Shown: positions 1 through 8,921 of the stretch, piece after piece
How the letters are laid out: each line of letters opens with the position of its first letter
How positions within the stretch are numbered: position 1 is the stretch's first letter
Origin: a virus
Lineage: Duplodnaviria; Heunggongvirae; Uroviricota; Caudoviricetes
DNA: 8,921 nt
Reading direction: 5' to 3' (one strand)
Virus record (IMG/VR): IMGVR_UViG_2671180636_000006
Notes under the pieces: generated by a model
Database searches by the model: none
The model's input: only the letters and a program-made list of their open reading frames with translations
What the model was told of the DNA's origin: nothing
Translations under genes and position numbers: made by a program

Positions 1-33
<33 letters not shown>

Positions 34-67
34 GCGAGATTTGAGACGAAGGTTGTTATTTGCACTG

Positions 68-81
68 ACACAATATTGTGT
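68..81. repeat. 14-bp perfect palindrome ACACAATATTGTGT, candidate protein-binding site
   Basis: The sequence equals its own reverse complement and has an AT-rich centre; it lies 35 bp downstream of the tRNA 3' end. Function unknown. Confidence 0.4.
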
Positions 82-151
82 GGGAATGTCTGACTCCTTA
101 CCATCTCCTGTTCTGTGATGTTGTTTTGTTGCAGTTCCAGTGCTCTTTTTT

Positions 152-232
152 CAGCACCAGAATGGTGCATTGTCGGTCAGGTTACGTAGTGAACCTCTGG
201 CAGGGGACTGATAATGCATCATTCTGGTGTTG
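152..232 (+). other. Long imperfect inverted repeat, predicted ~27-bp RNA hairpin with an internal stem-loop; candidate structured RNA or regulatory element
   Basis: Arms 152-178 and 206-232 pair at all 27 positions if G-T is allowed. The 4 non-Watson-Crick positions are all G/T on the + strand (G-U in + strand RNA, C/A on the other strand). The loop contains a nested hairpin AGGTT (179-183) / AACCT (192-196). Confidence 0.45.
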
Positions 233-480
233 TAAATATCTCTTCGGACAACTTACAAAATATTCTAAGCAAACCCCGGGAACACACTCTTAACTGCCTT
301 GGCTGGCGGTTTTTTGTACAGCGCTCGGTATGTGTGAGCTGGAAATCAGATTTTGCATGGACTGGAATCATGCTGTTATTTAGGGGCGAAGAACTGGCTT
401 TTTCTTCCGCCTTCTCACCAGTAACGATTAGAAAAATAATGAAATGCCCCCCTCCGGGGAGGAGGACCGTAGAAAAAAGG

Positions 481-538
481 ACCCGCCAGCAAAAACATTG
501 GGGATGAACAGCTTTCGCTACTCAGATTGCTGGCGGGT
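481..538. repeat. 11-bp perfect inverted repeat (ACCCGCCAGCA / TGCTGGCGGGT) separated by 36 nt
   Basis: Arm 481-491 is the exact reverse complement of arm 528-538. GC-rich stem, no downstream T-run, so not a classical terminator. Confidence 0.4.
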
Positions 539-646
539 AAAGTTCCTCATGAATTAAGAATGCTACGCGATCTTTTTTAATGGAAATGAAAATTATTGTC
601 AATTAGTCGTGCGTGTTTTTTCATACAATATTGGTAAAGGTGATTC

Positions 647-682
647 AGGCCATCAGAGTTTTGCTGATGGCCTTTTTTCTTT
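647..682 (+). terminator. Rho-independent terminator immediately upstream of the holin gene
   Basis: 10-bp stem AGGCCATCAG (647-656) / CTGATGGCCT (664-673), 7-nt loop AGTTTTG, followed by TTTTTTCTTT (673-682). On the opposite strand the hairpin is not followed by a T-run, so it is + strand specific. Confidence 0.75.
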
Positions 683-713
683 CCGATAGCACAGGTCTGT
701 CGGGGGGCGGGAT

Positions 714-989
714 ATGTATCAGATGGAAAAAATATCAACAGGCATTGCCTACGGCACCTCCGCCGGCAGTGCCGGCTACTGGTTTTTGCAGTGGTTGGAT
801 CAGGTCAGTCCATCACAGTGGGCTGCGATTGGTGTGCTGGGAAGTCTGCTTCTGGGGCTTCTGACTTATCTGACGAATCTGTATTTCAAAATAAGAGAAG
901 ATAAGCGTAAGTGGATTTGCCCCTATATTTCTCGCCATCATTACGCAAGGCTGTTGCAGTTGCTATTGGTGGCGGGGCTGTTGCTATAG
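714..989 (+). CDS. S: Class II holin / pinholin, phage 21 S-like, with a C-terminal extension relative to the ~71-aa form as I recall it
   Basis: [69 protein letters not shown]... closely resembles the phage 21 S pinholin as recalled. Two TM segments, dual start Met1/Met4, purine-rich SD (GGGGGCGGGA) before ATG 714. Stop TAG 987-989. Confidence 0.85.
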
Positions 990-1426
990 CATCTGTGTTA
1001 ATCACTGGCCCAGGTGGTAACGATGGTCTGGAAGGTGTCAGCTACATACTATACAAAGATATCATTGGTGTATGGACTGTATGTCACGGACACACCGGAA
1101 AAGACATCATGCTCGGTAAAACGTATACCGAAGCAGAATGCAAAGCCCTCCTGAATAAAGACCTTGCCACTGTCGCCAGACAAATTAACCCGTACATCAA
1201 AGTCGATATACCGGAAACAACGCGCGGCGCTCTTTACTCGTTCGTTTACAACGTGGGCGCTGGCAATTTCAGAACATCGACGCTTCTTCGCAAAATAAAC
1301 CAGGGCGATATCAAAGGCGCATGTGACCAGCTACGTCGCTGGACATATGCTGGCGGTAAGCAATGGAAAGGGCTGATGACCCGTCGTGAGATTGAGCGTG
1401 AAGTCTGTTTGTGGGGGCAGCAATGA
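911..1426 (+). CDS. R: SAR endolysin (phage 21 R-like lysozyme, T4-lysozyme/GH24 type)
   Basis: Translation ...[78 protein letters not shown]...REVCLWGQQ matches phage 21 R / DLP12 RrrD as recalled: Gly/Ala-rich N-terminal signal-anchor-release TM, then an E...D...T catalytic region. The frame opens at GTG 911 directly after TAA 908-910 and has no in-frame ATG upstream of the conserved region, so the start is GTG 911 or TTG 917. Stop TGA 1424-1426. Confidence 0.85.
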
Positions 1427-1752
1427 GCAGAGTCACCGCGATTATCTCCGCTCTGGTTATCTGCATCATCGTCCGCCTGTCATGGGCTGTTAATCATTAC
1501 CGTGATAACGCCATTACCTACAAAGAGCAGCGCGACAAAAACGCAAGAGAACTGAAGCTGGCGAACGCAACCATTACTGACATGCAGCAGNATGCACTCG
1601 ATGCTAAATACACGAAGGAGTTAGCTGATGCGAAAGCTGAAAATGATGCTCTTCGGCGCAAGCTTGATAATGGTGGTCGGGTGCTCGTCAAAGGAAAATG
1701 CCCTGTGCCATCCTCAGCCGAAACCTCCAGCGCCTCCGGCATGGGCAATGAT
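1423..1752 (+). CDS. Rz: Rz i-spanin (inner-membrane spanin subunit), 3' end masked
   Basis: ATG 1423 overlaps the endolysin stop (ATGA). [81 protein letters not shown]... is strongly similar to lambda Rz as recalled: N-terminal TM then a coiled-coil region. Runs into the N mask at 1753; contains one ambiguous base at 1591. Confidence 0.85.
1628..1752 (+). CDS. Rz1: Rz1 o-spanin (outer-membrane lipoprotein) embedded in the +1 frame of Rz, 3' end masked
   Basis: ATG 1628 preceded by AAGGAG at 8-nt spacing. [41 protein letters not shown]... has a signal peptide with lipobox (VVGC) followed by a Pro-rich segment ending PPAWAM, like lambda Rz1. Lies entirely inside Rz in a different frame. Confidence 0.8.
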
Positions 1753-2744
1753 NNNNNNNNNNNNNNNNNNNNNNNNNNNNNNNNNNNNNNNNNNNNNNNN
1801 NNNNNNNNNNNNNNNNNNNNNNNNNNNNNNNNNNNNNNNNNNNNNNNNNNNNNNNNNNNNNNNNNNNNNNNNNNNNNNNNNNNNNNNNNNNNNNNNNNNN
1901 NNNNNNNNNNNNNNNNNNNNNNNNNNNNNNNNNNNNNNNNNNNNNNNNNNNNNNNNNNNNNNNNNNNNNNNNNNNNNNNNNNNNNNNNNNNNNNNNNNNN
2001 NNNNNNNNNNNNNNNNNNNNNNNNNNNNNNNNNNNNNNNNNNNNNNNNNNNNNNNNNNNNNNNNNNNNNNNNNNNNNNNNNNNNNNNNNNNNNNNNNNNN
2101 NNNNNNNNNNNNNNNNNNNNNNNNNNNNNNNNNNNNNNNNNNNNNNNNNNNNNNNNNNNNNNNNNNNNNNNNNNNNNNNNNNNNNNNNNNNNNNNNNNNN
2201 NNNNNNNNNNNNNNNNNNNNNNNNNNNNNNNNNNNNNNNNNNNNNNNNNNNNNNNNNNNNNNNNNNNNNNNNNNNNNNNNNNNTGAGNNNNNNNNNNNNN
2301 NNNNNNNNNNNNNNNNNNNNNNNNNNNNNNNNNNNNNNNNNNNNNNNNNNNNNNNNNNNNNNNNNNNNNNNNNNNNNNNNNNNNNNNNNNNNNNNNNNNN
2401 NNNNNNNNNNNNNNNNNNNNNNNNNNNNNNNNNNNNNNNNNNNNNNNNNNNNNNNNNNNNNNNNNNNNNNNNNNNNNNNNNNNNNNNNNNNNNNNNNNNN
2501 NNNNNNNNNNNNNNNNNNNNNNNNNNNNNNNNNNNNNNNNNNNNNNNNNNNNNNNNNNNNNNNNNNNNNNNNNNNNNNNNNNNNNNNNNNNNNNNNNNNN
2601 NNTTTAGGCTTAAACACCTTACATTTACAAGGTACTCCTGTGGGGGGCCCTGCCACGGAGCGTCGCAGGAGTGAGTGATGAGGAAGAATTAAAGCAACCT
2701 ATTGTGACAGGCAGCGATAACAGTAAATCACAGGAAGCATAATC

Positions 2745-3509
2745 ATGGCAAAACCGGACTGGGAGGCCATCGAATCGGCATACCGGGCCGGAGTCCTTAG
2801 CCTCCGTGATATAGGCGAGAAATACGGCGTTACAGAAGGGGCTATCAGGAAGAGGGCCAAAAAGCTTGGTTGGGCACGCAGTGGCGGTACGCAGGTTTGC
2901 AAAAATGGTACGCAAAAAAGGAAAGTGCGTACCAGCAGAAAGCCTGCCATTACTGGCCTTACACAAAAAAGTACGCAACTAAAAACAGAATCTACACCGG
3001 ATACGAAACCGATACGCGGAATGCGTACCGATCCCCCGACTAACCCATTCCAACCCGGTAACCAGCAGGCATTAAAACACGGTGGTTATGCCCGTCGCCT
3101 TCTGCTCAAAGATGAGGTGATAGAGGACGCTAAAGCGTTGACGCTCGAGGACGAATTATTTCGCCTTCGTGCTAACAACCTTGTCGCTGCAGAGAATATT
3201 GGTCGGTGGTTGGTGTCGCTGGAAGATGCTAATGGGGACCAGGAAAGGAAGATGCTGATTGAAAATATCAGCGCCGCCGAGAAAGCAATGATGCGCAATA
3301 CAGTTCGTATTGAGTCCATCGTTGGCACGCTTGCGACGGTAGGAAAAATATTTGCTGATACAGCCTACCGCAAGGCCGCCACTGATAAGGTGTCTCTGGA
3401 GGCTGATCGTCTTCGCCGTGATGCAGGTATTGATGATGGCAATGGAGAGCGTGACCTCAATGACTTCTACTCTGACATCCAAACCGACGCTGAATCCGGC
3501 TTTACGTAG
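2745..3509 (+). CDS. Terminase small subunit (N-terminal HTH DNA-binding type)
   Basis: Complete 254-aa ORF with SD AGGAAG 7 nt before the ATG. N-terminus MAKPDWEAIESAYRAGVLSLRDIGEKYGVTEGAIRKRAKKLGW is the helix-turn-helix signature recalled from terminase small subunits that precede PBSX-type large terminases in enterobacterial prophages. Position directly upstream of the large terminase. Stop TAG 3507-3509. Confidence 0.75.
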   Translation: MAKPDWEAIESAYRAGVLSLRDIGEKYGVTEGAIRKRAKKLGWARSGGTQVCKNGTQKRKVRTSRKPAITGLTQKSTQLKTESTPDTKPIRGMRTDPPTNPFQPGNQQALKHGGYARRLLLKDEVIEDAKALTLEDELFRLRANNLVAAENIGRWLVSLEDANGDQERKMLIENISAAEKAMMRNTVRIESIVGTLATVGKIFADTAYRKAATDKVSLEADRLRRDAGIDDGNGERDLNDFYSDIQTDAESGFT

Positions 3510-5000
3510 TTTCTGGACTATGCGGGCACGTAACAAAGTGCTTTATGGTGGTCGGTCATCGTCAAAATCATGGGATGCCGCTGGCATTGCCATATTTCTG
3601 TCGAATAAATACACCCTGCGTTTTTGTTGTGCCCGTCAGATCCAGAATAAAATCGAAGAGTCGGTGTATACCCTGCTCAAAATTCAGATAGACAGGTTTG
3701 GTCTGCGGCACCGTTTCCGTATTCTGAACAACAAAATCATTAACCGGGTTACTGGCTCGGAATTTGTTTTTTATGGATTANNNNNNNNNNNNNNNNNNNN
3801 NNNNNNNNNNNNNNNNNNNNNNNNNNNNNNNNNNNNNNNNNNNNNNNNNNNNNNNNNNNNNNNNNNNNNNNNNNNNNNNNNNNNNNNNNNNNNNNNNNNN
3901 NNNNNNNNNNNNNNNNNNNNNNNNNNNNNNNNNNNNNNNNNNNNNNNNNNNNNNNNNNNNNNNNNNNNNNNNNNNNNNNNNNNNNNNNNNNNNNNNNNNN
4001 NNNNNNNNNNNNNNNNNNNNNNNNNNNNNNNNNNNNNNNNNNNNNNNNNNNNNNNNNNNNNNNNNNNNNNNNNNNNNNNNNNNNNNTAAGGTTATCGACG
4101 CGGCGCGACGCCGTGATCCGGATGGTTTTAAACATGTGTATGNNNNNNNNNNNNNNNNNNNNNNNNNNNNNNNNNNNNNNNNNNNNNNNNNNNNNNNNNN
4201 NNNNNNNNNNNNNNNNNNNNNNNNNNNNNNNNNNNNNNNNNNNNNNNNNNNNNNNNNNNNNNNNNNNNNNNNNNNNNNNNNNNNNNNNNNNNNNNNNNNN
4301 NNNNNNNNNNNNNNNNNNNNNNNNNNNNNNNNNNNNNNNNNNNNNNNNNNNNNNNNNNNNNNNNNNNNNNNNNNNNNNNNNNNNNNNNNNNNNNNNNNNN
4401 NNNNNNNNNNNNNNNNNNNNNNNNNNNNNNNNNNNNNNNNNNNNNNNNNNNNNNNNNNNNNNNNNNNNNNNNNNNNNNNNNNNNNNNNNNNNNNNNNNNN
4501 NNNNNNNNNNNNNNNNNNNNNNNNNNNNNNNNNNNNNNNNNNNNNNNNNNNNNNNNNNNNNNNNNNNNNNNNNNNNNNNNNNNNNNNNNNNNNNNNNNNN
4601 NNNNNNNNNNNNNNNNNNNNNNNNNNNNNNNNNNNNNNNNNNNNNNNNNNNNNNNNNNNNNNNNNNNNNNNNNNNNNNNNNNNNNNNNNNNNNNNNNNNN
4701 NNNNNNNNNNNNNNNNNNNNNNNNNNNNNNNNGTTTAACGCCATTAACAACGGAGAACAGTATCCTGTGGATGAGCTGATCAGCATAGATTCTCGTTGTC
4801 CGTTGCTTGAAAAGCTGAAACTGGAACTGACAACACCTCATCGTGATTTCGACCGTAACGGACGTGTGATGGTCGAAAGTAAAAAAGACCTCGCAAAACG
4901 CGAGATACCGTCACCAAACGTTGCTGATGCATTCATTATGGCCTTCGCGCCAATCGATACATCGCTGGATATCTGGGAACAGCTGGGGAGACAGGCCTGA
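3460..5000 (+). CDS. Terminase large subunit (PBSX/Terminase_3-like ATPase-nuclease), interrupted by two N-masked runs; visible fragments are in three different frames
   Basis: N-terminal fragment MTSTLTSKPTLNPALRSFWTMRARNKVLYGGRSSSKSWDAAGIAIF... has a Walker-A-like motif (GGRSSSKS). Middle island 4088-4141 reads KVIDAARRRDPDGFKHVY. C-terminal fragment 4733-5000 ends ...NVADAFIMAFAPIDTSLDIWEQLGRQA with stop TGA 4998-5000. Start ATG 3460 (SD GGAGAG upstream) is tentative; ATG 3442 or 3520 are alternatives. Confidence 0.75.
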
Positions 5001-6101
5001 TGGCACGAAACAAACAAGCCCTGCGGCGAACTGTGCAGGCCACAGCTGATGGTTATGAGAATTTTATTGCCCGCGTAGGGATGCAGACACCTAACCAGCA
5101 CTCAGCATCCACCTACCGGGCTAATTTCACCAGTCGTAACCGCATGCTGGTGGAATGGTCCTATCGTTCATCCTAGATCATCGGCGAAGCAGTCGATGCT
5201 ATCCCGGATGATATGACCCGCAAAGGCATTCGCATCACTTCGGAAATTGATGCAAAAGATCGTGGCATTCTCGAATCACAACTGGATGAGTTGCAAATCT
5301 GGGATGCGCTGAATGACGTGCTGAAATGGTCGCGCCTCTACGGCGGCGCGGTGGGTTTCATCATGATTGAGGGGTAGGCACCAATGACCCCGCTGCGACC
5401 CGAAACCATCGGTAAGGGCAAGTTTAAGGGGATTCTCCCGCTCGACCGCTGGATGGTCGACCCGGCACTGACCCGCCGCATTAAAGATATGGGGCCGGAC
5501 CTGGGTAAACCTGAGTTTTACGATGTGGTGACCACAGCAACGGGAATTCCTGCCTGGCGCATTCATCACAGTCGCCTGATTCGCTTTGATGGCGTCACGT
5601 TGCCATTTCAGCAGAAGATGACCGAGAACGAATGGGGAATGTCGGTTGTAGAGCGTATCTGGGATCGTCTTACCGCGTTCGACAGCGCTACTGTCGGCGC
5701 GGCGCAGCTGGTCTACAAGGCGCATTTGCGTACCTACAGCGTGGAGAAGCTACGCGAGCTTATCGCACTTGGTGGTCCTGCGTATGAAGCGTTGCTGAAG
5801 AATATCGACCTGATTCGACAGTTCCAGAGTAATGAAGGCATGACGCTCATGGACTCGCGGGATAAGTTTGAAACCCATCAGTACAGCTTCAGTGGTCTGG
5901 ATGACATCCTTTCGCAGTTTGTAGAACAGATTAGTGGCGCTGTTGGTATCCCACTGGTGCGGTTGTTCGGACAGTCCCCGAAAGGATTTTCTACCGGTGA
6001 TGCAGACCTTGCCAACTATTACGATCGCATCAGTTCGTTGCAGGAGAGGCGTTTACGTCTTCCGGTGCGGCGGATACTGGACATCATGCATCGTTCGGAA
6101 C
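5000..6101 (+). CDS. Portal protein, 3' end masked; ORF is interrupted by two in-frame TAG codons (5174-5176, 5375-5377), so possibly a pseudogene, or the functional start is the ATG at 5384
   Basis: ATG 5000 overlaps the terminase stop (ATGA). The same frame yields MARNKQALRRTVQATADGYENFIARVGMQTPNQ...WSYRSS, then a stop, then IIGEAVDAIPDDMTRKGIRITSEID...GFIMIEG, then a stop, then APMTPLRPETIGKGKFKGILPLDRWMVDP...RRILDIMHRSE. Protein-like throughout, and in the position expected for a portal between terminase and the Mu-F-like gene. Family assignment is by gene order and general resemblance, not a verified alignment. Confidence 0.7.
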
Positions 6102-6771
6102 NNNNNNNNNNNNNNNNNNNNNNNNNNNNNNNNNNNNNNNNNNNNNNNNNNNNNNNNNNNNNNNNNNNNNNNNNNNNNNNNNNNNNNNNNNNNNNNNNNN
6201 NNNNNNNNNNNNNNNNNNNNNNNNNNNNNNNNNNNNNNNNNNNNNNNNNNNNNNNNNNNNNNNNNNNNNNNNNNNNNNNNNNNNNNNNNNNNNNNNNNNN
6301 NNNNNNNNNNNNNNNNNNNNNNNNNNNNNNNNNNNNNNNNNNNNNNNNNNNNNNNNNNNNNNNNNNNNNNNNNNNNNNNNNNNNNNNNNNNNNNNNNNNN
6401 NNNNNNNNNNNNNNNNNNNNNNNNNNNNNNNNNNNNNNNNNNNNNNNNNNNNNNNNNNNNNNNNNNNNNNNNNNNNNNNNNNNNNNNNNNNNNNNNNNNN
6501 NNNNNNNNNNNNNNNNNNNNNNNNNNNNNNNNNNNNNNNNNNNNNNNNNNNNNNNNNNNNNNNNNNNNNNNNNNNNNNNNNNNNNNNNNNNNNNNNNNNN
6601 NNNNNNNNNNNNNNNNNNNNNNNNNNNNNNNNNNNNNNNNNNNNNNNNNNNNNNNNNNNNNNNNNNNNNNNNNNNNNNNNNNNNNNNNNNNNNNNNNNNN
6701 NNNNNNNNNNNNNNNNNNNNNNNNNNNNNNNNNNNNNNNNNNNNNNNNNNNNNNNNNNNNNNNNNNNNNNN

Positions 6772-7256
6772 AAAGCGCTCCTGTGGGCCAGGTGATGCAA
6801 TCCATCATCGCCGAACAGGTCAAGTACATCAAATCTCTGCCTCTCGAGGCCGCAGACAGGGTGTANNNNNNNNNNNNNNNNNNNNNNNNNNNNNNNNNNN
6901 NNNNNNNNNNNNNNNNNNNNNNNNNNNNNNNNNNNNNNNNNNNNNNNNNNNNNNNNNNNNNNNNNNNNNNNNNNNNNNNNNNNNNNNNNNNNNNNNNNNN
7001 NNNNNNNNNNNNNNNNNNNNNNNNNNNNNNNNNNNNNNNNNNNNNNNNNNNNNNNNNNNNNNNNNNNNNNNNNNNNNNNNNNNNNNNNNNNNNNNNNNNN
7101 NNNNNNNNNNNNNNNNNNNNNNNNNNNNNNNNNNNNNNNNNNNNNNNNNNNNNNNNNGACGGCATGACCGGCCACGCGGGCGAGCTGCCAAACTGCCGCT
7201 GCTATAAAGAGATCGTGTTTGTTCGCGTTCCATTCGCAATGAAAAGGGCAGCATAA
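6772..7256 (+). CDS. Head morphogenesis protein, Mu F-like / SPP1 gp7 family; C-terminal part only, largely masked
   Basis: Frame-0 fragments SAPVGQVMQSIIAEQVKYIKSLPLEAADRV (6774-6863) and DGMTGHAGELPNCRCYKEIVFVRVPFAMKRAA (7158-7253) with stop TAA 7254-7256. The H..ELPNCRCY segment resembles the conserved C-terminal NCRC motif of Mu F-like head morphogenesis proteins as recalled. Both fragments are in the same frame given the exact N-run length. Confidence 0.6.
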
Positions 7257-7304
7257 CCCATNNNNNNNNNNNNNNNNNNNNNNNNNNNNNNNNNNNNNNN
7301 NNNN

Positions 7305-8513
7305 TTTGAGACCAGGCTCGGGGAAACCCGATACCGCCTGGCTGACGGCTCGTTGCTGTGCAAAGACGTGCCGATAGGACGAACAGGTAAGCAGCTCTAT
7401 GGTGCTGATGACCTGCCAAAACTGAAACCCGATAAGTTCGGTGAAATAGTCGTCACGCGTTCTCCTGAGCAGGTATTCCATCCGGCCACGCTTGCCTCAT
7501 TCGAAGGGATGAGCATCACGATCCTGCATCCTGAAGATGAAAACGGGAATGTGCGGCTGGTAAATCCCGAGAACTGGAAAGAGCTTGCTGTCGGGCACCT
7601 CCAGAATGTCCGGCGCGGGACGGGTGAGCAGTCTGATTTGATGCTGGCTGACCTTATCGTCAAAGACGAAAGCGCCATTCAGCTTATCGAAGATGGCCTG
7701 CGCGAAGTGTCGTGCGGCTATGACGCGGAGTACGAGCAGACCGAGCCAGGTAAAGCCGAGCAGGTCGATATTACCGGAAACCATGTGGCTCTTGTCCCTA
7801 AAGGCAGAGCCGGAAATCGTTGTGCAATTGGAGACAGAGACACAATGGCAAATCAAAAGAAAAACTGGTGGAACCGCATGCGTGCGGCCATCAAGACAGG
7901 AGATGCCGACACCATGAACGAACTGGTGGAGTCGGCTCCCGCATCGGTTACAGGAGATGAGGGGGATTTGCCGCAGGGCGTTAATCTCAACATCAACCTG
8001 TCCCCGCAGCAACCACTACCGGACAAAGCACCAGAGATGGGCGGAGATCCAACCGGCGACAGTGATGATGACCTCAAAACATTACTGAAAGCCCTGCTGG
8101 CTAAGCTGGAAAGAAATGCCACGGGCGATAACGATAATAAGCCTGACGATAATCCGACCGGTGACGGCGAGGACGATGAAGAGGAAACCACGATTACTGG
8201 TGACTCAGCCTGGCGTGCCGAAGTTATCGTTCCGGGTATCGATCTGAGCCGTAAGATGAAACCGACCGCGTTCAAACGCGAGGTTCTGGCTTCTGCTGAC
8301 AAAACGCTGGTTCGCCAGATAGTCGGTGATGCGGATATCCGCAAATTACCGAAACAATCGGTCGACATGGCGTTTAATGCCGTGTCTGAGGTTGCCAAAG
8401 GGCGAAACACCCGCGCCACCACCGGCGATGCACAGCGCCTAAACATGGGCATGACCAGTATCGCTTCCCTGAACAAACAAAACGCTGAATTCTGGGCAAA
8501 CCGTAAAGGGTAA
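7305..8513 (+). CDS. Head assembly protein, probable scaffold (possibly scaffold/protease-type) with a conserved N-terminal domain and an acidic repeat-containing C-terminal half; true start is in the masked run upstream
   Basis: Open frame from the first unmasked base (FETRLGETRYRLADGSLLCKDVPIGRTGKQ...) to TAA 8511-8513. The 7353 start in the ORF track is a TTG and the frame is already open before it. Position between the Mu-F-like gene and a capsid-associated gene. Acidic, low-complexity C-terminal half (GDSDDDLKTLLKALLAKLERNATGDNDNKPDDNPTGDGEDDEEE) is typical of scaffolds. Confidence 0.55.
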   Translation, partial: FETRLGETRYRLADGSLLCKDVPIGRTGKQLYGADDLPKLKPDKFGEIVVTRSPEQVFHPATLASFEGMSITILHPEDENGNVRLVNPENWKELAVGHLQNVRRGTGEQSDLMLADLIVKDESAIQLIEDGLREVSCGYDAEYEQTEPGKAEQVDITGNHVALVPKGRAGNRCAIGDRDTMANQKKNWWNRMRAAIKTGDADTMNELVESAPASVTGDEGDLPQGVNLNINLSPQQPLPDKAPEMGGDPTGDSDDDLKTLLKALLAKLERNATGDNDNKPDDNPTGDGEDDEEETTITGDSAWRAEVIVPGIDLSRKMKPTAFKREVLASADKTLVRQIVGDADIRKLPKQSVDMAFNAVSEVAKGRNTRATTGDAQRLNMGMTSIASLNKQNAEFWANRKG

Positions 8514-8516
8514 AAA

Positions 8517-8921
8517 ATGAATAATGTATTTCTGTACCGGATGCCTGTTGGCATTGCCGGGGCTGTCTCTCGCCCGCAGGACTTAACCGTCGAACCGGTG
8601 GTCCTTAAATCCGATAACGCCTTCGCTGCCTATGGCCTGGCTGGTAAATACGATGATGACGGTTTTTTCGTGCCGCTGGCAGATGGTGATACCGCAGACA
8701 AGGTGAAGGGGATCTACGTGCGCCCTTATCCGACCACGTCGCAGCCGGACATGGTTCGCCAGGTGGGAACAGGCAAGAACTTCCCGGGCGACGCCATGAA
8801 GCGTGGCTACGTGACCGTTAATCTCGGTTCTGATTTTGATGCCAGCACTATCAAAAAAGGCGATCCGGTATACGTTGTCGTCTCCACTGATGAATCCATC
8901 AAAGTGCCGCTGGGTGGATTC
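8517..8921 (+). CDS. Phage capsid-associated structural protein (head decoration-like or capsid protein), N-terminal 135 codons; continues past the window end
   Basis: ATG 8517 preceded by AAGGG at 6-nt spacing, 4 bp after the scaffold stop. Open to the window end: MNNVFLYRMPVGIAGAVSRPQDLTVEPVVLKSDNAFAAYGLAGKYDDDGFFVPLADGDTADKVKGIYVRPYP... Product inferred mainly from position in the head module. Confidence 0.5.
   Translation, partial: MNNVFLYRMPVGIAGAVSRPQDLTVEPVVLKSDNAFAAYGLAGKYDDDGFFVPLADGDTADKVKGIYVRPYPTTSQPDMVRQVGTGKNFPGDAMKRGYVTVNLGSDFDASTIKKGDPVYVVVSTDESIKVPLGGF

What the first reader, a model, noticed from the sequence alone, without database searches (positions are those of the whole stretch)
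5000..5386. Portal gene carries two in-frame amber (TAG) codons
From ATG 5000 one frame gives three consecutive protein-like segments separated only by TAG at 5174-5176 and TAG at 5375-5377. The middle segment (5177-5374) has no start codon or SD of its own, which argues for one interrupted gene rather than three genes. Each TAG is one transition from a sense codon (TGG Trp or CAG Gln). Explanations to separate: decay of a cryptic prophage, consensus or sequencing error (the window carries N runs and a single ambiguous base), or an amber-suppressor-dependent phage. The ATG at 5384 has an SD (GAGGGG) and could give a truncated product.
Basis: partly seen in the sequence, partly recalled or inferred. 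Interest (0 to 1): 0.6.

Follow-up and report, generated by a model that had tools for sequence, protein, structure and literature searches.

The report
Dead portal gene in Shigella prophage
The two in-frame TAG codons are real, but they are ordinary inactivating point mutations, fixed in Shigella sonnei, in the portal gene of a prophage remnant that has already lost its capsid and tail genes, so this is routine genome decay rather than sequencing error or amber-suppressor biology.

Summary
Observation confirmed. From ATG 5000 one frame is interrupted only by TAG at 5174-5176 and 5375-5377. The gene is a phage portal: Pfam PF06381, PHROG 146, and homology to solved portal dodecamers. The nearest intact copies (E. 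coli prophages, 99.8% identical) read TGG (Trp59) and CAG (Gln126). The window differs from them in this gene only by G5175A, C5375T and C5922T (Ala308Val). The stops are not errors. The exact 58-aa, 54-aa and 360-aa fragments are each recorded on at least 1000 public contigs named Shigella sonnei, including complete chromosomes (53G, lineage II), and the 360-aa fragment also in Ss046 (lineage III). No copy with either amber appeared in 358 complete E. coli genomes, 42 other IMG/VR proviruses, 11 metagenome contigs or two species-representative genomes, and no single-amber intermediate was found. In complete S. sonnei genomes the prophage has IS2 in the holin 3' end, and an IS1 starts right after the ATG of the major capsid gene, so the capsid and everything downstream are deleted. 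The phage tRNAs carry no CUA anticodon. Verdict: a lineage-fixed pseudogene in a decaying prophage, already visible in public annotation. Interest is low.

The parts
5000..6101 (+). Portal gene (pseudogene), visible part. The intact gene is 1467 nt / 488 aa, and its 3' end and stop codon lie inside the N run 6102-6771.
   Evidence: Pfam PF06381 Phage_portal_3: 3e-106 for the intact orthologue, 6e-15 and 5e-71 for the window fragments. PHROG 146 portal, 1e-174. TIGR01555. Pam3 portal 8hds, 2e-37. Annotated as one 488-aa CDS in E. coli relatives.
5174..5176 (+). Amber 1: codon 59, TGG (Trp) > TAG through G5175A
   Evidence: All 47 panel relatives have G and all 14 S. sonnei-type loci have A. Trp is also conserved in the Pam3 portal alignment and in phages 689R2 and SEN34.
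5375..5377 (+). Amber 2: codon 126, CAG (Gln) > TAG through C5375T
   Evidence: Gln is conserved in the Pam3 portal, 689R2 and SEN34.
5921..5923 (+). Third private substitution: codon 308, GCA (Ala) > GTA (Val) through C5922T
   Evidence: 20 of 20 panel relatives have C and 14 of 14 S. sonnei-type loci have T.
5000..5176 (+). 58-aa N-terminal fragment ORF ending at amber 1
   Evidence: Called as a gene in 2737 blocks of the public collection. Named 'putative bacteriophage protein [Shigella sonnei]' and seen on at least 1000 contigs.
5213..5377 (+). 54-aa internal fragment ORF (Met72 to amber 2)
   Evidence: It is also the basis of PHROG 28295, a 54-position family that matches residues 72-125 exactly.
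5384..6101 (+). Start of the 360-aa C-terminal fragment ORF (Met129 onward). GAGGGG at 5369-5374 is SD-like but is ordinary coding sequence (Glu-Gly) in intact genes.
   Evidence: UniRef Q3Z426_SHISS.
3460..5000 (+). Terminase large subunit gene. Most of it is hidden by N runs, so window coordinates are inflated. Its stop overlaps the portal ATG.
   Evidence: Mapping to L002 3864-5267. PF04466 Terminase_3 in S. sonnei loci, 467 aa and intact.
2745..3509 (+). Terminase small subunit-like gene (254 aa), intact
   Evidence: PHROG 370 terminase small subunit, 2e-94.
714..931 (+). Class II holin gene, whose 3' end is interrupted by IS2. Only the first 20 nt of IS2 remain in the window (912-931), followed by a collapsed junction.
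   Evidence: The IS in L004 4770-6100 is 99.9% identical to the annotated IS2 and has the target duplication GTAAG.
932..1426 (+). Lysozyme (RrrD-like) gene, with its ATG lost at the collapsed junction
7305..8513 (+). DUF2213 / Pa193_gp24-like head protein gene (protease/scaffold-like). Its first codons lie in an N run.
8517..8921 (+). Head cement protein gene, cut by the window end. In complete genomes IS1 follows 11 nt after its stop.

Best explanation
The window is the packaging/head-gene end of a lambdoid, SEN34-like prophage remnant of Shigella sonnei. Two spontaneous G:C>A:T transitions (Trp59 TGG>TAG, Gln126 CAG>TAG) and one missense change (Ala308Val) inactivated its portal gene. All three were fixed before S. 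sonnei lineages II and III split. The stops are read as stops. At most the locus yields 58-aa, 54-aa and 360-aa fragments that cannot build a portal ring, and nothing here could be packaged anyway, because IS1 has removed the major capsid gene and everything downstream and IS2 has split the lysis cassette.

Shown: the identity of the gene, the ancestral codons, the fixation of the stops across independent assemblies, and the IS damage and deletion.

Inferred: that the fragments have no function, and that the mutations were neutral or nearly neutral events fixed by drift in a bottlenecked clonal pathogen.
For: 1. Portal identity.
2. Ancestral TGG/CAG. The nearest relatives differ by only 3 bases in 1369. 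The panel of 47 relatives has G and C at the two sites. Phages 689R2 and SEN34 read through with W and Q.
3. The stops are real and fixed. The 58-aa product is listed in 2737 blocks, and ten complete or near-complete S. sonnei chromosomes show the same 58+54+360 split. Window blocks 1592-8921 are 100% identical to them. Public names are S. sonnei, with at least 1000 contigs for each fragment. HE616528.1 is 53G, lineage II, and Ss046 is lineage III.
4. The alleles are private to this lineage. None was found in 358 E. coli genomes. The two species-representative genomes are both intact. IMG/VR holds 42 intact and 4 double-amber copies. All 11 metagenome contigs are intact.
5. The prophage is defunct. 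A 1331-bp IS2 with a GTAAG target duplication sits in the holin 3' end. IS1 begins immediately after the ATG of the major capsid gene and is followed by host genes pgl, ybhD and a ybhJ-like gene.
6. Context. [quoted passage not shown]
Against: Two nonsense changes among three private substitutions in one gene is more than simple neutrality predicts (P about 0.01). Within the 6.1-kb packaging/head block, all three private changes fall in the portal. The neighbouring terminase, MuF, DUF2213 and cement genes are still intact ORFs. The excess fades once the lysis/DedA region is included: about 9 private changes in 7.7 kb, judged against a small panel. It fades further once ascertainment is taken into account. 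The window itself ends before the IS1 boundary, so loss of the capsid gene is shown for the complete S. sonnei genomes that are identical to the window, not for the window's own source.
Confidence: 0.9

Rival explanations
1. Sequencing, assembly or consensus error: the source strain really has TGG and CAG, and the scaffold, which has many N runs, carries miscalled bases.
For: The window is a poor scaffold. Its N runs are not length-true, one N replaces 16 bases, and an IS2 junction is collapsed. All three differences are G:C>A:T, a class that DNA damage can also produce.
Against: The identical TAG/TAG/GTA haplotype is present in ten independent complete or near-complete chromosomes and four IMG/VR proviruses. 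The fragment proteins are each recorded on at least 1000 contigs.
Confidence: 0.01
2. An amber-suppressor-dependent or recoded phage: the TAGs are decoded (for example Gln by a supE-like tRNA, which would restore Gln126 exactly) and a full-length portal is made.
For: Both stops are amber, and a Gln-inserting suppressor would make Q126am silent. No single-amber intermediate was seen among 70 typed loci. These points are compatible with the idea but do not indicate it.
Against: No relative shares the stops. The tRNA set carried by this prophage type is Ile2-CAU, Arg-UCU, Thr-UGU and Gly-UCC, with no CUA anticodon. The major capsid and tail genes are deleted and IS2 disrupts the lysis cassette, so no virion could be made even with a full-length portal. 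No paper in the library links S. sonnei with amber suppressors.
Confidence: 0.01
3. Selected (adaptive) silencing of the portal: loss of portal protein was favoured in the S. sonnei ancestor, for example because leaky portal expression was toxic or triggered a portal-sensing defence system, and that produced repeated hits in one gene.
For: Within the 6.1-kb packaging/head block, the only three lineage-private substitutions all lie in the portal. They are 2 nonsense, 1 missense and 0 synonymous. P(at least 2 of 3 nonsense) = 0.011 and P(all three in the portal) = 0.014. S. dysenteriae Sd197 also has a truncated 360-aa portal fragment that starts at the same Met129.
Against: The numbers are tiny and the case was selected for having two stops. 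Adding the adjacent lysis/DedA region gives about 9 private changes, only 3 of them in the portal. Once the first stop exists, the second is simply a neutral change. Killing the portal does not protect a cell from prophage induction. No portal-sensing system was looked for or shown.
Confidence: 0.05
4. The 360-aa product from ATG 5384 (SD-like GAGGGG nine bases upstream) is a functional truncated protein retained by the host.
For: The ORF is intact in all S. sonnei genomes examined and has a plausible SD and spacing.
Against: The whole remnant is invariant within this young clone, so intactness carries no information. The SD-like string is ordinary coding sequence in intact genes. The product lacks the first 83 of 357 Pfam portal positions. 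There is no capsid gene for it to work with.
Confidence: 0.03

Closest known systems
Portal protein of SEN34-like (Brunovirus) and related temperate phages/prophages of E. coli and Salmonella: Pfam PF06381 Phage_portal_3 (formerly DUF1073), TIGR01555 HI1409 family, PHROG 146
   Same: Same gene, same position immediately after and overlapping the PBSX-family terminase large subunit gene, and same downstream order (MuF-like, DUF2213, cement, major capsid). Nucleotide identity is 99.8% to E. coli VL40 and FDAARGOS_943 prophages, 97% to phage vB_EcoM-689R2 and 85% to SEN34.
   Different: It carries two premature amber codons and A308V. The prophage around it is truncated by IS1 and interrupted by IS2.
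Fixed pseudogenes of Shigella genome degradation (nonsense mutations, IS insertions, deletions), as described in PMC7373316
   Same: A nonsense-inactivated gene, fixed across lineages, sitting among IS1 and IS2 insertions and an IS-bounded deletion in a clonal human-restricted pathogen.
   Different: It lies in a prophage gene rather than in the metabolic or surface genes usually discussed. Two independent nonsense hits in one gene is somewhat unusual.
Laboratory amber mutants of phage morphogenesis genes, and natural TAG-recoding phages with suppressor tRNAs
   Same: In-frame TAG codons in an essential head gene, made by G:C>A:T transitions at Trp and Gln codons. This is the classic origin of amber mutants (own knowledge).
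   Different: There is no suppressor tRNA in the prophage tRNA cluster. The stops are not shared by relatives, TAG is not spread over other genes of the element, and the element cannot form particles.
Independent decay of the sister prophage in E. coli FDAARGOS_943
   Same: The same prophage type at 99.8% identity, also decaying: IS2 splits the terminase large subunit gene and the MuF head-morphogenesis gene has an internal stop.
   Different: Different genes are hit, and its portal is intact.

Membership tests
Phage portal protein, Pfam PF06381 (Phage_portal_3 / DUF1073) | Match to the family HMM above the gathering score | tested here: met
   The intact orthologue scores 355 bits against a cutoff of 33.8. 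The window fragment 5177-5374 scores 55 bits and 5384-6100 scores 240 bits, covering consecutive parts of the profile (13-76 and 84-321). PHROG 146 portal, 1e-174.
Phage portal protein, Pfam PF06381 (Phage_portal_3 / DUF1073) | Sequence homology to experimentally solved portal dodecamers | tested here: met
   Pam3 portal 8hds, E = 2e-37 over residues 15-413. Further solved portals score 9e-23 to 1e-14.
Phage portal protein, Pfam PF06381 (Phage_portal_3 / DUF1073) | Genomic position directly downstream of the terminase large subunit in a head-morphogenesis module | tested here: met
Phage portal protein, Pfam PF06381 (Phage_portal_3 / DUF1073) | Uninterrupted reading frame able to give the full-length subunit | tested here: not met
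   Stops at codons 59 and 126. It is therefore a portal pseudogene, not a working member of the family.
Lineage-fixed pseudogene in a degraded prophage | The disabling changes are derived relative to intact orthologues | tested here: met
   47 of 47 panel relatives carry TGG and CAG. None of 358 E. coli genomes has either TAG.
Lineage-fixed pseudogene in a degraded prophage | The same changes are present in independent genomes of the lineage, so they are not an artefact | tested here: met
Lineage-fixed pseudogene in a degraded prophage | Other essential phage functions are also lost | tested here: met
   IS1 replaces the major capsid gene and everything downstream, and IS2 sits in the holin/lysozyme junction. 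This is shown in complete S. sonnei genomes identical to the window; the window itself ends before the IS1 boundary.
Stop-codon recoding / suppressor-dependent phage | In-frame stops conserved among related elements or spread over several genes | tested here: not met
   The stops are confined to one haplotype. The other genes of the remnant have none.
Stop-codon recoding / suppressor-dependent phage | Suppressor tRNA (CUA anticodon) encoded by the element | tested here: not met
   ARAGORN finds CAU, UCU, UGU and UCC (or UAC) anticodons only in the tRNA cluster of this prophage type. The window holds only the 3' end of the Gly-UCC tRNA.
Stop-codon recoding / suppressor-dependent phage | Suppressor tRNA in the host genome | not testable with these tools
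   The whole S. sonnei genome was not available to the tRNA tool. No paper in the library links S. sonnei with amber suppressors.

The most novel reading that the evidence does not exclude
The portal was silenced by selection rather than by drift. Repeated inactivating hits (W59am, Q126am, A308V) in an otherwise unchanged packaging/head block, together with a portal fragment in S. dysenteriae Sd197 that starts at the same Met129, would point to convergent or inherited loss of portal protein in Shigella, for example to avoid toxicity or triggering of a portal-sensing immune system. A variant of this reading: the double-amber allele is shared between S. sonnei and S. dysenteriae, and so moved horizontally while already 'dead'.
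Probability: 0.05. Interest if true: 0.5.

Novelty: already known. Interest (0 to 1): 0.1.

Why it matters
It matters little for biology. It is one more fixed pseudogene in the well-documented decay of the S. sonnei genome.

Its practical value is in annotation:
- The three fragments are carried in public databases as separate 'putative bacteriophage proteins'.
- One fragment is labelled 'Alpha/beta hydrolase' in UniRef.
- The 54-aa inter-amber piece seeds its own PHROG family.

The TAG/TAG/GTA haplotype is also a clean S. sonnei-specific marker within a prophage family that is common in E. coli.

Tried and rejected
- Ungapped comparison of the whole window with relatives failed outside 4733-6101, because the N runs are not length-true. 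Per-block BLAST replaced it.
Whether Sd197 shares the ambers therefore remains open.
- One IMG/VR scan was wasted on a pattern with a gap one base too long. It was corrected after a local test.
- align_proteins rejected the window ORF because of its stops, so the alignment was done in Python.
- The window's own source was not found in genome contigs or in JGI metagenomes.
- I considered that the 247-aa versus 152-aa MuF calls in S. sonnei loci showed ongoing decay and rejected it. The DNA is identical and only the called start differs.
- I considered that all private substitutions clustering in the portal showed selection and rejected it as unproven. The lysis/DedA region also carries private changes.
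- The PGAP label 'anti-CBASS protein Acb1 family' attached to one orthologue is not reproduced by NCBIfam, which gives only TIGR01555.
- A literature search for amber suppressors in S. sonnei found nothing.

Full report
**What is in the sequence.** Reading from ATG 5000, one frame gives protein-like sequence broken only by TAG at 5174-5176 and TAG at 5375-5377, then runs on to the N run that starts at 6102. ATG 5000 overlaps the TGA of the upstream ORF (TGATG). The window contains eight N runs. Comparison with complete genomes shows they are not length-true: 670 N stand for 529 bases, and a single N at 1591 stands for 16 bases. The window is therefore a scaffold, but both TAGs lie in the middle of a clean 1369-base block. 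There is an in-frame ATG at 5213 (Met72), which gene callers use, although no convincing SD precedes it.

**What the gene is.** The intact orthologue scores 355 bits on Pfam PF06381 (Phage_portal_3, formerly DUF1073). The window pieces 5177-5374 and 5384-6100 hit consecutive parts of the same model. PHROG 146 'portal protein' matches at 1e-174 and NCBIfam gives TIGR01555. Solved portal dodecamers are clear sequence homologues, the best being Pam3 8hds at 2e-37. The gene follows a PBSX-type terminase large subunit. In intact relatives it precedes MuF-like, DUF2213, cement and major capsid genes. 'Portal' is correct.

**What the TAGs were.** The nearest complete genomes are E. coli VL40 and FDAARGOS_943. 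Over 1369 bases they differ from the window at only three positions:
- G5175A, changing TGG Trp59 to TAG;
- C5375T, changing CAG Gln126 to TAG;
- C5922T, changing GCA Ala308 to GTA Val.

In those genomes the gene is one 488-aa CDS. The isolated phages vB_EcoM-689R2 (98.8% aa identity) and Salmonella phage SEN34 (91%) also have W59, Q126 and A308. Both residues are conserved even in the Pam3 portal alignment.

**Error or real.** The 58-aa product that ends at the first TAG is listed in 2737 blocks of the public gene-position index. Ten complete or near-complete chromosomes were shown, and every one has the same split: the 58-aa product is called in all ten, the 360-aa fragment in all ten and the 54-aa ORF in eight. 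Window blocks from 1592 to 8921 are 100% identical to them. Public names for all three fragments are 'putative bacteriophage protein [Shigella sonnei]', each on at least 1000 contigs, and the 360-aa piece is UniRef Q3Z426_SHISS from strain Ss046. HE616528.1 is S. sonnei 53G, lineage II, and Ss046 is lineage III (PMC5447701). The stops are therefore real and were fixed before those lineages split. Sequencing error is excluded.

**How widely the stops occur.**
- None of 358 complete E. coli genomes holding this stretch has fewer than the two mismatches.
- The only two species-representative genomes with the stretch (S. flexneri SFBU1023 and E. coli ECMA0423) are intact.
- Among IMG/VR proviruses, 42 are intact and 4 carry both ambers. 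All four also carry V308 and match the window exactly.
- All 11 metagenome contigs are intact.
- No single-amber intermediate was seen.

**State of the surrounding element.** In complete S. sonnei genomes a 1331-bp IS2 with target duplication GTAAG sits in the last codons of the holin gene, upstream of the lysozyme gene. The window keeps only the first 20 nt of this IS2 (912-931) at a collapsed junction. On the right, homology with intact prophages stops immediately after the ATG of the major capsid gene. There an IS1 end begins, followed by the host genes pgl, ybhD and a ybhJ-like gene. The capsid gene and everything downstream, where tail genes would lie, are absent at this locus. Further IS copies lie upstream. 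This is a prophage remnant that cannot make particles, whatever happens at the TAG codons.

**Suppression.** The tRNA cluster carried by this prophage type encodes Ile2 (CAU), Arg (UCU), Thr (UGU) and Gly (UCC), with a UAC variant in VL40. The window's first 33 bases are the 3' end of the Gly tRNA. No CUA anticodon is present. No paper in the library connects S. sonnei with amber suppressors. A host-encoded suppressor could not be checked.

**Is two stops more than chance?**
- In the intact gene, 49 of 794 possible G:C>A:T transitions create stops (28 amber), so P(at least 2 of 3) = 0.011.
- After polarising with up to 47 relatives, the only S. sonnei-private substitutions in the 6.1-kb block from the small terminase gene to the cement gene are the three portal changes.
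- That looks like targeted inactivation, but the adjacent 1.6 kb (lysozyme, Rz-like, DedA) carries about six more apparently private changes, judged against a smaller panel.
- This gives about 9 changes in 7.7 kb with 3 in the portal, which is unremarkable.
- The window was also chosen because it has two stops. Once the first stop exists, the second is a neutral change.
- The remnant is invariant among ten S. sonnei genomes apart from homopolymer indels typical of long-read assemblies. The intactness of the neighbouring genes and of the 360-aa ORF therefore says nothing about function.

**Conclusion.** This is a lineage-fixed, doubly nonsense-mutated portal pseudogene in an IS-riddled, truncated prophage of S. 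sonnei. It is an ordinary product of the genome degradation described for Shigella, where nonsense mutations, IS insertions and deletions have inactivated 14% of S. sonnei CDS in at least one genome (PMC7373316).

The split has been visible in public annotation since at least the Ss046 annotation (UniRef Q3Z426_SHISS). I found no paper that discusses it specifically.

**Open lead.** S. dysenteriae Sd197 has a 360-aa portal fragment that starts at the same Met129. It keeps Ala308 and has four missense changes of its own. Whether it shares Gln126am could not be tested.

Noticed in passing
window 905-945 (junction at 931/932): The window holds only the first 20 nt of IS2 (TGGATTTGCCCCTATATTTC) and then jumps straight to codon 2 of the lysozyme gene. 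Complete S. sonnei genomes have the full 1331-bp IS2 plus 25 nt of native sequence at this spot. This is either a collapsed-repeat assembly artefact or a real internal deletion in the source strain.
   Followed up: partly
window 1-167, junction at 167/168: Window 1-33 is the 3' end of a prophage tRNA-Gly (UCC). Window 1-720 is contiguous in several E. coli prophages (99.7% identity). In all ten S. sonnei chromosomes examined an IS abuts position 168 and bases 1-167 are absent nearby. The source either lacks that IS or the scaffold is chimeric with a paralogous lambdoid prophage.
   Followed up: partly
window 1113, 1114, 1147, 1307, 1334 (lysozyme gene): There are five mismatches to all complete S. 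sonnei copies. At 1307 and 1334 the window has the base found in E. coli relatives. IMG/VR double-amber locus L053 differs at 23 positions in the same stretch. The lysis cassette is repeated among lambdoid prophages, so this may be paralogue mixing or recombination.
   Followed up: partly
window N runs 1753-2283, 2288-2602, 3781-4086, 4143-4732, 6102-6771, 6866-7157, 7262-7304, and N at 1591: Every N run is longer than the sequence it replaces in complete genomes, by 15 to 141 bases. A 4-base island (2284-2287) sits between two runs. Coordinates of genes that span these runs are inflated.
   Followed up: yes
window 5213-5377 (54-aa ORF): This inter-amber fragment has become a database entity of its own. 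PHROG 28295 is a 54-position family of unknown function that matches residues 72-125 of the portal exactly, and UniRef names the fragment 'Alpha/beta hydrolase'. Both are artefacts of annotating a pseudogene as genes.
   Followed up: partly
L003-type E. coli relatives (hit H12): RefSeq labels one orthologue of this portal 'anti-CBASS protein Acb1 family protein' and labels the others 'DUF1073 domain-containing protein'. NCBIfam release 20 gives only TIGR01555 (HI1409 family), and Pfam now calls PF06381 a portal family. The Acb1 label looks like a naming inconsistency.
   Followed up: partly
L001 2528-5267 and 6624-7367 (E. coli FDAARGOS_943): The sister prophage (99.8% identical) is decaying independently. 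IS2 splits its terminase large subunit gene and its MuF head-morphogenesis gene has an internal stop, while its portal is intact.
   Followed up: no
protein P0033 (S. dysenteriae Sd197, 360 aa): This portal fragment starts at the same Met129 as the S. sonnei fragment. It keeps Ala308 and has four missense changes of its own (W>R, P>L, P>L, R>W). The upstream lesion is unknown, so it could be the same Q126 amber or an independent one.
   Followed up: partly
L002 2442-2954 / window N run 1753-2602: A DedA-family membrane protein gene lies on the opposite strand between the lysis genes and the terminase genes. It looks like a moron-type insertion in this prophage family and is hidden by N runs in the window.
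   Followed up: no
L004 versus L008, left flanks (locus coordinates 1-4500): S. sonnei genomes fall into two arrangements upstream of the holin gene. One has a cI/Cro-like HTH gene, DUF1391 and IS elements including an IS110-family copy. The other has QueH, hok, Rem, DUF1367, YbcO, a Q-like gene, tRNA-Ile2 and an IS. This indicates IS-mediated rearrangement between lineages.
   Followed up: no
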